DNA of 39,813 nucleotides, from contig CAZCRK010000008.1 of NCBI GenBank assembly GCA_964501035.1, forward strand, positions 1-39,813, read 5' to 3'. The position numbers are program-made. Shown here piece after piece: positions 35,701-38,700 of this stretch; position 1 is the stretch's first letter, and the number at the start of each line of letters is the position of its first letter.

Positions 35701-38700
35701 TAGTAAAATGGTCAGATATCGATAGAAGTGATGAGTATGTTTTTGATTGGGTTCCAGAAGAAAATCCAAAAATTGCAATTGTATATGCAGTTGGTGGAAT
35801 TGTTTCAGGTGAAAGCAATCCTAGCATTTCAGGTTCAACCAGAATGGGTGATGAAACCATAACAAAAGCTATTAAATCAGCACGAGAAAATGAAGATGTA
35901 AAAGCTGTTGTCTTAAGAATTGACAGCGGAGGAGGATCTGCTCTTGCTTCAGATATGATGTGGAAAGAAGTTCAAAACACTACAGTTTCTGATACCGCAA
36001 ATATAAAACCATTTATTGCTTCTATGTCAGATGTAGCAGCATCTGGTGGTTATTATATTGCATGTCAAGCAGACACAATTGTTGCAGACCCTGCAACTCT
36101 GACTGGTTCAATAGGTGTGATTGGGTTAAACTTAAATTTTTCAAAACTACTCAACAAAATTGGAATTAATTTTGGTCAAATTAAACGAGGTGAACATGCT
36201 GATTTTCAATCTGCAACTCGACTTGTCACTGAAGATGAACGTGAAATTATTATGTCTGAGATCAAAAATATTTATAATATATTTAAACAACGAGTCATTG
36301 ATGGGCGTGAAAACTTCAATAATTTAGATTCATTAGATGCAATTGCATTGGGTCGTGTTTGGTCTGGTAATGAAGCCAAGCAAAATGGATTAATCGATGA
36401 AATTGGTGGAATTCATGATGCAATTACACTAGCGAAATCTGCCGCTGGAATTTCCGAAGATCAAGAAATTGATATTGTTGAGTATCCAAGACATGATTTA
36501 GGGATTTTTTCTAATGTTAAGATTAACGCAAATACAGATATAAATACATTTCTACCAGAACAATTGTTTAATAAGTTAGATGTATTGAATATAATACCTA
36601 TTATTCTTGATGATGAAATTCAATTACTTGTGCCCTACTCTATCTCAGTTAAATAAAGGAGAATTTTAATGATTAAATATATATTCCTGTTATTATTTTT
36701 AATATCAACAATCTTTTCTCAAGACAGGTCATCAATTTATAATACTGGGTCTCCAATTGGAACAGATGGGTATTCAATTCATTTGAATTCTGATGGAACC
36801 GGTCAGACGGTAGCAAATAGATTTACATCATACAATAACTACGTTTTAGAAGCTTTTACATTTTATGCAAGTTTTCAGTCAGATGAAGCTACAGTAGTTG
36901 CAAAAATTTATGAGGATAATGACAATTCACCAGGGAATATATTGTTTGAGAAGGAATTAGAATTAAATCCTAATTTTGCTTCTGGGAGAGAATATGTAAT
37001 ACTTGCAAATGATGATTGTTATTATTTAGAAAAAGACAGTTATTATTGGTTGTCACTTCAAGCAAATGACACCACATCTTCAGTTACTTGGCTATATTCA
37101 CCCAGTCCATATTTTCCATATTCTATTAGTACCAATAATGGTGAAACATGGTCATCCACAGGCTACAGTTATTCAGGAGCTTCTAAAGTATATGGAATTG
37201 ATATCTATGAACAAGAGCAGATTGCTGGTGATATAAATTTTGATAATGTAGTAAATGTGTTAGATGTTGTAGGAATTGTTGGATTTATCATGGAAACCAA
37301 TGAATTAACCGAAGAGCAGCAGAATTTGGCCGATTTAAACCATGATGCTATAGTAAATGTACTTGATATTGTCTCGCTTGTGGATTTAATTTTATCAACT
37401 TCTGAGCCAAACTACACTTTTCTACTAGAAGATATTAATCCAAATTCATCATCATTTACTGAAATGATTGGTCCTGCAACATATAGTGGCCAAATTTCAT
37501 GTTACTACTTTGGGAAAGCTGGCTGAAGTACATGCAGACACCGGTTCGGTGTTGTAAATGATTTGTACAATGATTTATTAGATGAAGGAATAACTGATGT
37601 TAAAATGATGGGTATTAATGGGTATCAGTACATAAATGATAGTTATACCTGTATGATTTGTGAAACACCAGAGAACTGTTCGAGCTGTAATGAAATTAGA
37701 TATTTACCTTGGGTACAAGAAACTGACGAAACAAATGTTTGGTCTGAATGGAATATTACACTACGAGATTTTGTAATTTTAGATAGAAATGGTGTAGAAA
37801 TTACACGAGTTAATTTAACTCCGTATAATCCATCTCCCGAAGGTACGGCTAGTTGTTCAGGAAATTACGAAGCAATTAAAGAAATTATTTTAAATGCAAT
37901 TAATCAATAAATTATTAAATACAACTTGTACAGTTATATTTTATTGTTTTAAATTTTATATAGGAATAATTACTACTTAATATGAGATATAGTTATCAAA
38001 GAGAAACAATAGAGAGTACAGTTAAGTCTGTAAAAACGCATCCAACAGCTCAGGAAGTCTATGAAATGGTGCAGGATAAAATACCAAATATTAGTTTAGG
38101 TACTGTATATAGAAATCTACAACAGCTTGTAAAACATGAGAAACTCTTAGAAGTTAGTATTAACGGTGTTTCTCATTTTGATGGAGACTTGTCTGTACAT
38201 CAACATTTCTATTGTTCCACTTGTGAGAGTATTTTTGATATTTTCTCAAATTTAAGTGACAGTTTTAATTCAGACATTGAATCGATGCCTCATAATGTTG
38301 ACACTATTGATATTCGATTTAAAGGTACTTGCGAAAACTGTAATACATAATATATAAGGATACATACCATGTTAGTAACGAAGCATGCTCCAGAATTTAC
38401 TGCACAAGCAGTAATGCCTGATAACTCAATTCAAGAAATAAGTCTCTCAAATTATAAAGGAAAGAAAGTCGTTTTATTCTTTTATCCTCTTGATTTCACG
38501 TTTGTTTGCCCAACTGAACTTATTGCTTTCAACCATCGTTTAGATGAATTTAAATCCAAAGGTGTTGAAGTACTAGGTTGTTCTATTGATTCACAATTCT
38601 CACATTTAGCATGGAAAAATACAGATGTTAATAATGGTGGAATTGGTAATGTGCAATATCCTTTAATTGCTGATTTAGATAAATCTATCTCACGAGATTA

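What a model noticed while it worked through the whole genome (the two positions that open the first line are those of the whole stretch)
36669..37910. Selenoprotein with a family-less U-S-T-C domain behind an internal dockerin (g00468+g00469)
g00468 and g00469 form one 413-aa secreted protein: a choice-of-anchor-R-like N-domain, a type-I dockerin in the middle, and a C-terminal Cys-rich domain of about 165 aa with no Pfam family whose motif G-K-A-G-U-S-T-C holds selenocysteine (residue 286). The UGA is conserved in relatives, so the two calls must be merged, and the C-domain is a candidate new UxxC redox module carried on the cohesin-dockerin system.
Evidence so far: Open frame across TGA and a hairpin 4 nt downstream. 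Pfam finds only Dockerin_1 186-237 in the read-through protein at E<=0.01. Search of own genome + 15 relatives with the C-domain: matches in 11 of 16 genomes; 13 of 13 matches that cover the motif have one in-frame TGA (31-99% identity); the 2 rows without a stop are second pieces that start after residue 102.
(Added by a program. Inside this text positions count along the whole contig: contig position 1 is position 1 of the stretch shown here. "Call 12" and the like, gene names such as g00115 and contig names such as C1 are that model's own, and its searches are not shown. The text may have been shortened before it was handed on; [...] marks where a part breaks off. The agent that wrote the report below was given it as the finding of a first reader that could run no searches.)

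Follow-up and report, generated by a model that had tools for sequence, protein, structure and literature searches.

The report
Known marine selenoprotein with a dockerin
The two gene calls are one secreted selenocysteine protein of a marine SAR406-type bacterium, but its redox domain belongs to a family published in 2008 rather than a new one.

Summary
ORF 36669-37526 ends at TGA 37524-26 and the frame stays open to TAA 37908-10, giving one 413-aa protein with U286. It has a signal peptide, a choice-of-anchor-R beta-sandwich, a dockerin and a thioredoxin-fold UxxC domain. The genome has tRNA-Sec, SelA, SelB and SelD. The TGA is kept in 29 of 30 related loci; the other has Cys. A 6-bp hairpin starting 11 nt after the UGA is conserved, with compensatory changes.

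The "family-less, candidate new module" reading does not hold. The C-domain scores 135 bits against a cut-off of 100 for NCBIfam NF053656 (redoxin_TUGYCR). It is also the "Prx-like 2" selenoprotein family of the GOS metagenome study (Zhang & Gladyshev 2008). That paper's Figure S1C shows this same N-terminal fusion as "Unknown_2/Prx-like 2", and its Dataset S1 holds six sequences with the same YFGKAGU signature.

The model (pLDDT 89.6) is a TlpA/ResA/Prx-like fold. Three points appear undescribed: the linker is a dockerin, the clade carries cohesins (one on a T9SS-sorted 251-aa protein), and the gene sits directly upstream of a 2-Cys peroxiredoxin in 18 of 25 orthologous loci.

My best reading is an envelope- or surface-tethered Sec oxidoreductase linked to peroxide defence. 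Interest is low to moderate.

The parts
34197..36656 (+). Upstream gene: SppA-type signal peptide peptidase (819 aa, Peptidase_S49). It ends 12 nt before the selenoprotein start.
   Evidence: A homologue lies upstream of the orthologue in 14 of 25 full-length orthologue loci (flanks are only about 1.4 kb).
36656..36661 (+). Shine-Dalgarno-like AAGGAG, 7 nt before the ATG
   Evidence: Read directly from the sequence.
36669..37910 (+). One selenoprotein gene of 413 codons plus TAA; it merges g00468 and g00469.
   Evidence: translation with TGA=U; same read-through frame in relatives.
36669..36719 (+). Signal peptide, residues 1-17 (MIKYIFLLLFLISTIFS, then QDRS). There is no lipobox Cys.
   Evidence: Read from the sequence. 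The hydrophobic N-terminus followed by S-Q-D-R-S is conserved in orthologues. No signal-peptide predictor was run.
36720..37202 (+). N-domain, residues 18-178: choice-of-anchor R, a 12-strand beta-sandwich with an Asp-box-like S-x-N-x-G-x-T-W (154-161) and invariant C117. It equals 'Unknown_2' of the GOS paper.
   Evidence: NF041539, 37.1 bits against a cut-off of 30. Model pLDDT 89. Only weak jelly-roll/CBM-like matches, TMq 0.48 or less. Matched to Figure S1C of PMC2398784 by eye.
37224..37379 (+). Type-I dockerin, residues 186-237, with two calcium-loop repeats: DINFDNVVNVLD (188-199) and DLNHDAIVNVLD (222-233).
   Evidence: PF00404, 27.1 bits against a cut-off of 22.9. Helices in the model. 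D188, N190, D192, D199, D222, D226 and D233 are invariant in 19 orthologues.
37416..37895 (+). Thioredoxin-fold redox domain, residues 250-409 (NF053656 redoxin_TUGYCR, GOS 'Prx-like 2'). It holds U286-S-T-C289, R292-F293 and R366-D367. The CxxC-x5-CxxC insert at 328-340 is not conserved.
37524..37526 (+). UGA codon read as selenocysteine (U286)
   Evidence: TGA in 29 of 30 loci and Cys in one. Among 99 representatives that cover the column, 63 have Cys and 28 have W. The Sec machinery is present.
37538..37552 (+). SECIS-like apical hairpin ACACCG-GUU-CGGUGU, starting 11 nt after the UGA. It overlaps codons H291-R292-F293-G294-V295.
   Evidence: A2: 90.8% of cells paired against 77.8% in shuffles (0 of 500 reach it); 4 of 6 pairs change on both sides; slid controls give 16-53%. 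GGTT is invariant.
37982..38350 (+). Fur-family regulator (122 aa), same strand, 71 nt downstream
   Evidence: PF01475, E 7e-21. Found between the selenoprotein gene and Prx in 6 loci.
38369..39013 (+). 2-Cys peroxiredoxin (AhpC/TSA plus 1-cysPrx_C), Cys form, with no signal peptide visible
   Evidence: Directly downstream in 18 of 25 full-length orthologue loci.
39024..39053 (+). Terminator-like stem-loop with T-run after Prx. It is the only such site downstream of the gene before SOD.
   Evidence: consensus scan only.
39076..39648 (+). Fe/Mn superoxide dismutase

Best explanation
g00468 and g00469 are one gene for a 413-aa secreted selenoprotein of a Marinisomatota (SAR406, 'Neomarinimicrobiota') bacterium. 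[quoted passage not shown]

Shown. UGA-286 lies in a conserved frame. A conserved hairpin starts 11 nt downstream, and the genome has tRNA-Sec, SelA, SelB and SelD. The C-domain is a TlpA/Prx-like thioredoxin fold. U286 sits in the loop just before the long helix 287-305, where CxxC active sites sit (that placement is recalled), and C289 follows three residues later.

Inferred. SelB reads the hairpin and inserts Sec. U286 is the attacking nucleophile and C289 resolves it as a selenenylsulfide. The enzyme works outside the cytoplasm, held by its dockerin on one of the genome's cohesins. The best candidate is the 251-aa cohesin protein with a T9SS sorting tail, which would place it on the cell surface. 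The beta-sandwich N-domain would bind a target.

The position of the thioredoxin cis-Pro is taken by an almost universal Arg-Asp, and I recall that Prx carry their catalytic Arg at about this place. The gene also sits in a conserved SppA-selenoprotein-(Fur)-Prx-SOD row. For these two reasons I commit to a peroxide or oxidised-thiol detoxifying role (thiol-peroxidase-like) rather than a protein-maturation role.

My odds: about 0.95 that it is one selenoprotein of this known family, about 0.45 for the peroxide-defence function, and about 0.5 for the cohesin tether. The confidence figure of 0.6 is for the statement as a whole.
For: Frame and motif.

Family: NF053656 at 135 bits against a cut-off of 100. 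There is a single copy in the own genome, with 1 TGA.

Conservation: 80 of 81 motif-covering rows in 41 genomes carry TGA. In the loci, 29 of 30 have TGA and 1 has Cys. Among the 150 best of 1157 representatives, 99 cover the column, with 63 Cys, 28 W and 8 other. A further 13 fragments begin two residues after it.

SECIS. The one Cys-form locus (L017) keeps only 3 of the 6 pairs (read).

Sec machinery.

Fold: pLDDT 89.6. VIA Z 15.7-14.3 to TlpA/DsbE/ResA/Etrx, 13.8 to Prx/Bcp and 12.7 to GPx. Foldseek E about 1e-7.

RD motif: R122 and D123 of the domain piece are invariant in 29 sequences, and RD is present in 74 of the 90 aligned rows (89 representatives plus the query's own row) that cover both the Sec column and this site. 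It aligns to the 'IP' of a tryparedoxin-like chain.

Synteny: Prx directly downstream on the same strand in 18 of 25 full-length orthologue loci, across families of the order. The GOS paper also reports one read with neighbouring Prx and Prx-like 2 genes.

Dockerin and cohesin: dockerin reaches Pfam E<=0.01 in 24 of 30 family proteins, at three different positions. The own genome gives 62 dockerin and 4 cohesin matches, including a cohesin plus Por_Secre_tail protein. Cohesin is found in 39 of 41 related genomes.

Complex prediction of dockerin against that cohesin: weak support, score 0.34 against a best control of 0.01. That mark was reached by 116 of 157 solved complexes and 2 of 215 mismatched pairs. 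Scores of 0.60 or under came from only 18 of those solved complexes and from both mismatches. The runs agree in at least 98% of their contacts, and the partner's pLDDT is at least 75. The pass may come from memory of solved cohesin-dockerin pairs.
Against: No experiment shows Sec insertion, activity or location.

No electron donor for an enzyme outside the cytoplasm was identified; CcdA/DsbD were not searched.

The neighbouring Prx, Fur and SOD lack signal peptides by eye, so they act in another compartment. Synteny among relatives of one order may be inherited rather than functional.

The top structural matches are disulfide reductases (TlpA/ResA/DsbE), not peroxidases, and the Prx signature PxxxTxxC is absent.

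The protein has no T9SS tail of its own, so how it would reach a surface cohesin is unknown.

The single-sequence hairpin is not more stable than shuffles. No Rfam family other than tRNA matched in the window.

I could not read the model's coordinates, so whether R366 is near U286 is untested.
Confidence: 0.6

Rival explanations
1. Same gene and family, but the domain works as a TlpA/ResA/DsbE-type disulfide reductase or isomerase. It would keep envelope or surface proteins reduced or correctly paired, for example the many Cys-bearing dockerin proteins or cytochromes. It would not act on peroxides.
For: The best structural neighbours are TlpA-like reductases: 3eyt, 3gl3 DsbE, 2f9s ResA and 4hqz Etrx2, Z 15.7-14.7 (Foldseek). 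The motif is UxxC/CxxC rather than a lone peroxidatic residue. The protein is secreted. Pfam Thioredoxin_8 gives weak hits in 6 of 29 members.
Against: The cis-Pro typical of these reductases is replaced by R-D. The conserved neighbourhood is Prx/Fur/SOD rather than cytochrome-maturation genes. The closest sequence profiles are SelP_N (17 of 29 members) and AhpC-TSA (9 of 29).
Confidence: 0.3
2. The TGA is a true stop. Either g00468 (N-domain plus dockerin) and g00469 are separate products, or the gene is a pseudogene.
For: Default gene calling splits it. An in-frame TTG at 37563 could start a 115-aa product. The single-sequence hairpin energy is not significant.
Against: The TGA stands at the same column in 29 of 30 loci at 26-78% identity to the window's C-domain, and aligns to Cys in homologues. 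The split would cut a single thioredoxin fold before its first helix. A covarying hairpin and the full Sec machinery are present.
Confidence: 0.02
3. TGA is read as Trp (code 4/25) in this organism, so residue 286 is W.
For: 28 of 99 database representatives that cover the column show W there.
Against: TGA ends 3 other long ORFs in the window. A tRNA-Sec with anticodon UCA, SelA, SelB and SelD are present. Homologues carry Cys, never a conserved Trp codon. The W residues are best explained by gene callers run with another code; that is my inference.
Confidence: 0.01
4. The UxxC site binds a metal or metalloid (Sco-like Cu, Hg or As handling), or serves selenium storage or transport as SelP does, rather than catalysing redox turnover.
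For: Sco proteins share the fold (Z 13.4-12.1). There is weak sequence likeness to SelP_N. Extra Cys clusters occur in some orthologues.
Against: The Sco His ligand and the Sec-rich SelP tail are not present (read; those motifs are recalled). The Cys-rich insert is missing in 12 of 29 aligned members. The neighbourhood is oxidative-stress genes.
Confidence: 0.05

Closest known systems
[quoted passage not shown]
   Same: It has the same UxxC motif and the same low similarity to pfam04592. It is marine, and its UxxU variants match the 2-TGA paralogues. A Prx neighbour is noted there too. Dataset S1 lists 6 sequences with the YFGKAGU signature under '#Prx-like 2'. Figure S1C aligns the same N-domain.
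   Different: The paper gave no organism, no fold and no name for the N-domain. In the passages, figure and dataset I saw, it does not mention a dockerin or cohesins. The match of the N-domain to Figure S1C is by eye, not by a computed alignment.
NCBIfam NF053656 redoxin_TUGYCR ('TUGYCR motif thioredoxin fold (seleno)protein')
   Same: Scores 135 bits against the curated cut-off of 100 over residues 250-409. It is a thioredoxin fold with Sec/Cys alternation.
   Different: The local motif is G-U-S-T-C-R rather than T-U-G-Y-C-R. The T-C-x-Y-C-R form is seen in Cys representatives. I found no paper on the family: 'TUGYCR' gives 0 papers.
TlpA/ResA/DsbE(CcmG)/Etrx extracytoplasmic thiol-disulfide oxidoreductases
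   Same: Fold, Z 15.7-13.2. N-terminal beta-hairpin, active site at the start of helix 1, and export by signal peptide.
   Different: Sec in place of the first Cys. The cis-Pro is replaced by Arg-Asp. It is fused to a beta-sandwich and a dockerin, and there is no membrane anchor.
Peroxiredoxins (AhpC/TSA, BCP)
   Same: Fold, Z 13.8-13.4. Weak AhpC-TSA hits in 9 of 29 members. The conserved Arg before the central strand resembles the Prx catalytic Arg (recalled). It neighbours a true Prx.
   Different: No PxxxTxxC signature. All Pfam scores are below threshold. The resolving Cys sits three residues after the nucleophile, as in CxxC enzymes.
Selenoprotein P, N-terminal domain (PF04592)
   Same: An extracellular UxxC thioredoxin-fold domain. 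It is the best Pfam profile for the family: 17 of 29 members at E<=0.1, best 1.2e-4.
   Different: All scores are below the gathering cut-off of 23.2 bits. There is no Sec-rich tail. Homology beyond the shared superfamily is not shown.
Cellulosomal cohesin-dockerin assemblies
   Same: A type-I dockerin with two calcium loops. The genome has cohesins, including multi-cohesin giants and an adaptor-like cohesin-plus-dockerin protein.
   Different: The dockerin is internal. The cargo is a redox enzyme, not a glycoside hydrolase. The host is a small-genome marine diderm, and the candidate anchor carries a T9SS sorting domain.

Membership tests
Bacterial selenoprotein gene | In-frame UGA aligned with Cys (or UGA) in homologues | tested here: met
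   29 of 30 loci have TGA and 1 has Cys. Of 99 representatives covering the column, 63 have Cys.
Bacterial selenoprotein gene | SECIS stem-loop just downstream of the UGA | tested here: met
   A 6-bp hairpin starts 11 nt after the UGA: 90.8% of cells paired, 4 of 6 pairs with compensatory changes, 0 of 500 shuffles as high. The lower stem is not conserved. That the 11-nt spacing and the G-U loop match the E. coli rule is recalled.
Bacterial selenoprotein gene | tRNA-Sec, SelA, SelB and SelD in the genome | tested here: met
   tRNA-Sec, 65.8 bits, anticodon tca; SelA; SelB wing domain next to SelA; SelD, itself with 1 TGA.
Bacterial selenoprotein gene | Selenium actually present in the protein | not testable with these tools
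   Needs 75Se labelling or mass spectrometry.
NCBIfam NF053656 redoxin_TUGYCR | Score at or above the curated cut-off (100 bits) | tested here: met
   135 bits, E 1.7e-39, residues 250-409 on profile positions 3-145 of 146; 128.2 bits from DNA.
NCBIfam NF053656 redoxin_TUGYCR | T-U-G-Y-C-R motif | tested here: inconclusive
   The motif here is G-U-S-T-C-R: U, C and R are kept, T, G and Y are not. Cys representatives show T-C-x-Y-C-R. I could not see the family's own definition text.
GOS 'Prx-like 2' (Zhang & Gladyshev 2008) | UxxC motif in a Trx-like fold with only weak similarity to pfam04592 | tested here: met
   SelP_N E 0.036-0.25 for the own protein, and 17 of 29 members at E<=0.1. Fold. 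The paper's table and text were seen.
GOS 'Prx-like 2' (Zhang & Gladyshev 2008) | Sequence signature shared with the listed members | tested here: met
   A string search of Dataset S1 gives 6 entries with YFGKAGU and 2 with CRHRFG under '#Prx-like 2'. No alignment was computed.
Dockerin type I (PF00404) | Pfam score above the gathering cut-off, and two calcium-binding repeats | tested here: met
   27.1 bits against 22.9. Both D-x-N-x-D...D repeats have invariant Asp/Asn in 19 orthologues.
Dockerin type I (PF00404) | Binds a cohesin | tested here: inconclusive
   Cohesins exist in the genome. The complex prediction gives weak support only: 0.34 against a best control of 0.01. That mark was reached by 116 of 157 solved complexes and 2 of 215 mismatched pairs, and scores of 0.60 or under came from only 18 of those solved complexes and from both mismatches. 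The pass may come from memory of solved pairs.
Choice-of-anchor R (NF041539) | Score above the curated cut-off (30 bits) | tested here: met
   37.1 bits, residues 42-175.
Peroxiredoxin (PF00578 AhpC/TSA) | Pfam score above the cut-off (26 bits), and the PxxxTxxC active-site signature | tested here: not met
   The own protein has no hit at E<=1. 9 of 29 members hit only below the cut-off (the scores printed are 17.4-18.4 bits). The motif is YFGKAGUxxC, without the Pro and Thr. The signature itself is recalled.
Peroxiredoxin (PF00578 AhpC/TSA) | Conserved catalytic Arg packed against the peroxidatic residue | not tested
TlpA/ResA/DsbE-like thioredoxins | Fold, with CxxC at the start of helix 1 | tested here: met
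   Z 15.7-13.2, rmsd 2.4-2.6 A over 132-139 residues. U286 lies in the loop just before helix 287-305, domain residues 43-61.
TlpA/ResA/DsbE-like thioredoxins | cis-Pro loop before the central strand | tested here: not met
   Arg-Asp occupies the position aligned to 'I-P' of 2lus and 4fyu, and is invariant in 29 of 29 sequences.
Selenoprotein P N-terminal region (PF04592) | Pfam score above the gathering cut-off (23.2 bits) | tested here: not met
   11.1-13.9 bits for the own protein. The highest score printed for an orthologue is 19.2 bits, and the best member E-value is 1.2e-4.

The most novel reading that the evidence does not exclude
Marinisomatota (SAR406) use a clade-wide cohesin-dockerin system to hang redox enzymes, not carbohydrate-degrading ones, on the cell surface. 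The cargo would include this Prx-like 2 selenoprotein and perhaps other dockerin-tailed marine selenoproteins (GOS_C/Omp28-like, Prx-like 3/Unknown_3), held on a T9SS-anchored cohesin.

That would be an extracellular selenium-based antioxidant or redox 'display', and a bacterial counterpart, possibly a distant relative, of the extracellular UxxC domain of selenoprotein P.
Probability: 0.2. Interest if true: 0.6.

Novelty: already known. Interest (0 to 1): 0.3.

Why it matters
For annotation, g00468 and g00469 should be merged and named as a redoxin_TUGYCR / Prx-like 2 selenoprotein. Many database entries for this family are still split after the UGA, or show W at the Sec position.

For biology, the family has had neither an organism nor a context since 2008. 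This analysis places the fusion form in Marinisomatota. It names the unknown parts: a choice-of-anchor-R beta-sandwich and a dockerin. It finds a conserved position directly upstream of a 2-Cys peroxiredoxin. It also shows that the clade has cohesins, one of them on a T9SS-sorted protein.

If the tether is real, an abundant ocean lineage displays a selenoenzyme outside the cell. That bears on peroxide turnover and selenium demand in sea water. None of this changes the kind of system: it is a known selenoprotein family with a standard fold.

Tried and rejected
1. Single-sequence folding of the region after the UGA gave z -0.04, so it is not usable as evidence on its own. The long stem with a bulge that RNAfold draws is not conserved: in 29 sequences, columns 12/31 are unpaired in 25 and columns 13/30 in 19.

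2. Rfam at gathering thresholds found only three tRNAs in the window and no SECIS family.

3. The search for related loci with the C-domain alignment was rejected because no stretch was conserved enough. The single protein then found only 3 loci, which served to name the phylum.

4. The profile search of PDB sequences gave only marginal hits, best 2lus at E 1.5e-3, plus chance LuxR/SmcR hits. Sequence alone does not place the domain; the fold searches do.

5. Foldseek on the N-domain gave only weak jelly-roll, CBM and phage-fibre matches (TMq 0.48 or less). I do not assign a ligand.

6. NF045500 (Omp28-related selenoprotein) hit the protein at E 0.0027. This is only its dockerin tail, and the own genome has no full member.

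The ESM Atlas does not take read-through proteins, so no language-model neighbours were obtained.

8. Literature: 'TUGYCR' 0 papers; dockerin plus selenoprotein 2 papers, both unrelated going by their titles and abstract openings in the listing; Marinimicrobia plus selenocysteine 5 papers with 4 listed, none on this protein going by their titles and abstract openings; dockerin plus Marinimicrobia 0 papers. The library lacks most subscription journals.

9. The TGA=Trp code and two-genes readings were considered and rejected (see the rival explanations).
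Full report
**What is in the sequence.** An ORF starts at ATG 36669, with AAGGAG 7 nt upstream, 12 nt after the stop of an SppA-type peptidase gene. It runs to TGA 37524-37526. The same frame then stays open for 128 codons to TAA 37908-37910. Read with TGA=U it gives 413 residues with U286 in G-K-A-G-U-S-T-C. At 32% GC, a random frame would stay open that long with a probability of roughly 1e-4 to 1e-5 by my arithmetic. TGA ends three other long ORFs in the window, so the organism does not read TGA as a sense codon in general.

**Selenocysteine machinery and recoding signal.** The genome is 1.87 Mb in 167 contigs and 95.7% complete.
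- It holds a tRNA-Sec (65.8 bits; ARAGORN gives anticodon tca).
- It holds SelA and a SelB wing domain in a 627-aa frame next to SelA.
- It holds a SelD that itself carries one in-frame TGA.

Folding the single sequence after the UGA is no better than shuffles (z -0.04). No Rfam family other than tRNA matched in the window.

Comparison gives a clearer answer. In 29 TGA-bearing relatives, the 60 nt from the UGA align without gaps and GGTT is invariant at columns 20-23. A 6-bp hairpin (columns 15-20 with 24-29, window 37538-37552) starts 11 nt after the UGA. It is paired in 90.8% of cells against 77.8% in shuffles (0 of 500 reach it). It shows changes on both sides in 4 of 6 pairs, and it drops to 16-53% paired when the partner strand is slid. 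The longer bulged stem drawn by RNAfold is not conserved. The only Cys-form locus (L017) keeps 3 of the 6 pairs (read). That the 11-nt spacing and a G-U-containing loop fit the E. coli SECIS rule is recalled, not tested. The hairpin overlaps codons H291-V295, so the invariant R292-F293 may be held partly by the RNA.

**Conservation of the UGA.** NF053656 was searched in the own genome plus 40 relatives. It matched in 35 of 41 genomes, 23 of them over the cut-off, in 87 rows.
- 81 rows cover the Sec column: 50 have one TGA and 30 have two.
- One row (G038) has no TGA, and it has Cys at that position.
- The 6 other rows without a stop begin at or after profile position 40.

In the 30 loci fetched, 29 have TGA at the U of [YF]F[GS]...U..C..RF and 1 has Cys.

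A profile of the C-domain found 1157 representatives at E<=1e-3 among 1.84 billion proteins, 217 of them at E<=1e-10. Of the best 150, 99 cover the column: 63 have Cys, 28 have W and 8 have something else. Thirteen fragments start two residues after it. I read W as TGA translated under another code by gene callers, and the fragments as split calls; both are inferences.

**The family is not new.** Pfam gives only Dockerin_1 above threshold, plus a sub-threshold SelP_N hit. NCBIfam, however, matches residues 250-409 to NF053656 redoxin_TUGYCR, 'TUGYCR motif thioredoxin fold (seleno)protein', at E 1.7e-39 and 135 bits against a cut-off of 100. It also matches residues 42-175 to choice_anch_R.

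Zhang & Gladyshev 2008 (PMC2398784; I saw passages, Figure S1 and Dataset S1) list 'Prx-like 2' with these features:
- pfam04592 with e-value above 0.001, and a UxxC motif.
- 99 selenoproteins in 23 samples, and 100 Cys homologues.
- UxxU variants, and enrichment in marine samples.
- One read with neighbouring Prx and Prx-like 2 genes.
- A very distant homologue of known Prxs, with no strong homologue in any sequenced genome.

Their Dataset S1 holds 6 entries with YFGKAGU under '#Prx-like 2'. [quoted passage not shown] A 2026 review of prokaryotic selenoproteomes (PMC13188914; passages seen) does not carry the name TUGYCR, and no paper in the library does.

**Fold.** AlphaFold2 on 29 aligned C-domains gave pLDDT 89.6 and pTM 0.87. 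U286 lies in the loop just before a long helix. Structural neighbours fall in this order:
- TlpA/DsbE/ResA/Etrx thioredoxin-like proteins, VIA Z 15.7-14.3, rmsd 2.3-2.8 A over 132-139 residues.
- Prx/Bcp at Z 13.8, Sco at 13.4 and GPx at 12.7.
- Foldseek gives E about 1e-7 for the same set.

By sequence profile, the family's members hit SelP_N (17 of 29), AhpC-TSA (9 of 29) and Thioredoxin_8 (6 of 29), all below Pfam thresholds.

Invariant residues in the 29 sequences are N257, Y280, F281, U286, C289, R292, F293, G315, W358, R366, D367 and N382, converted. R366-D367 aligns to the 'I-P' of tryparedoxin-like chains. The family therefore lacks the cis-Pro and carries Arg-Asp in its place. That Prx carry their catalytic Arg at about this place is recalled. 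The Cys-rich insert 328-340 is absent from 12 of the 29 aligned members, so it is not part of the core.

**The rest of the protein.** The N-part model (19 orthologues, pLDDT 89.0) is a 12-strand beta-sandwich (residues 21-178) followed by a three-helix dockerin. Only weak jelly-roll, CBM and phage-fibre matches were found.

The dockerin passes Pfam (27.1 bits against 22.9), and both of its calcium loops are invariant in orthologues. Among 30 family proteins, 24 have a dockerin at E<=0.01, in three arrangements: internal in most, N-terminal in L017 and L039, and C-terminal in L034-L037. Three short lipoprotein-like forms have none.

**Cohesins.** The own genome gives 62 dockerin matches and 4 cohesin matches in 3 ORFs:
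- a 251-aa protein with a cohesin and a T9SS Por_Secre_tail;
- a 539-aa cohesin-LRR-dockerin protein;
- a frame of at least 2177 aa with two cohesins.

Cohesin is found in 39 of 41 related genomes, with a recurrent class of about 250 aa.

A complex prediction of the dockerin with the 251-aa protein's cohesin gave weak support: 0.34 against a best control of 0.01. That mark was reached by 116 of 157 solved complexes and 2 of 215 mismatched pairs. Scores of 0.60 or under came from only 18 of those solved complexes and from both mismatches. The runs agree in at least 98% of their contacts, and the partner's pLDDT is at least 75. Solved cohesin-dockerin pairs exist, so the pass may be from memory.

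**Organism and neighbourhood.** The closest named records are Candidatus Neomarinimicrobiota MAGs. Downstream on the same strand lie a Fur-family regulator, a 2-Cys Prx and an Fe/Mn SOD. The only terminator-like site lies after Prx (consensus scan only).

Among 25 loci with the full-length orthologue, Prx is directly downstream in 18, SppA is upstream in 14 and Fur lies between in 6. It was not seen in L013-15, L017, L019, L032 or L033. Flanks are about 1.4 kb, and L033 ends 244 nt after the gene. None of the 7 paralogue loci shows it.

**Reading.** It is firmly shown that this is one selenoprotein gene of a known family with a standard thioredoxin-like fold. How it works is inference. Sec-286 would attack, Cys-289 would resolve, and the enzyme would act outside the cytoplasm, probably docked on a cohesin. 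I favour a peroxide or oxidised-thiol defence role (about 0.45) over a TlpA-like maturation reductase (about 0.3). My reasons are the Arg-Asp in place of the cis-Pro and the conserved Prx/Fur/SOD row. Against this, the best structural neighbours are reductases, the neighbours are cytoplasmic, and no electron donor is known.

**Verdict.** The kind of system is already known. The dockerin-cohesin context in SAR406 and the Prx synteny appear undescribed in the library searched and are worth a note rather than a headline.

Noticed in passing
G000:C13:7047-7973 (own genome, outside the window): The selD gene itself carries one in-frame TGA, so this organism has a selenocysteine-containing SelD.
   Followed up: no
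Relatives G002-G037, 30 rows (for example G009:C16:9587-9967): A paralogue class of about 220 aa in the same family has two in-frame TGAs. This fits the UxxU variants of 'Prx-like 2' reported in the GOS paper. The own genome has only the single-TGA copy.
   Followed up: partly
G000:C29:10180-10935 (L043:1181-1936); G000:C52:3106-4725 (L044:2107-3726); G000:C9:2-6532 (L045): This 1.87-Mb genome gives 62 dockerin matches and three cohesin proteins. One is a 251-aa cohesin with a T9SS sorting tail, and one is a cohesin-LRR-dockerin adaptor-like protein. Cohesins are in 39 of 41 relatives. No paper in the library pairs 'dockerin' with 'Marinimicrobia'.
   Followed up: partly
window 37203-37394, and G000:C27 (L046, L047): About the last 60 positions of the NCBIfam model NF045500 (Omp28-related selenoprotein, listed as GOS_C in the 2026 review) match dockerins. 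That marine selenoprotein family therefore also ends in a dockerin. The own genome has no full member.
   Followed up: partly
Figure S1D of PMC2398784 (no window coordinates): The 'Unknown_3' domain fused to the 'Prx-like 3' selenoproteins shows, by eye, paired D-x-N-x-D...N-V-x-D repeats like a dockerin. It would be a third dockerin-linked selenoprotein family. Not tested.
   Followed up: no
window 37539-37553: Codons H291-R292-F293-G294-V295 lie inside the SECIS hairpin. Arg is CGG and Phe is TTC in 28 of 29 TGA-bearing loci, despite 32% GC. The Cys-form locus L017 uses TTT and has a weakened stem. Protein and RNA constraints overlap here.
   Followed up: partly
window 37650-37688 (residues 328-340): A CxxC-x5-CxxC insert is present in 17 of the 29 aligned family members and absent in 12. 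Several orthologues carry further long acidic or Cys-rich inserts after 'LPWxQD'. Function unknown.
   Followed up: no
L037 (G005:C27), residues about 158-186 of its protein: A paralogue with the redox domain first and the dockerin last carries a Kazal-like Cys-rich segment between them (E 4e-4). That locus has ambiguous bases that read X.
   Followed up: no
window 34197-36656: The upstream SppA is unusually long at 819 aa. It has about 300 residues with no Pfam match before two Peptidase_S49 stretches. It is syntenic with the selenoprotein gene in 14 loci.
   Followed up: no
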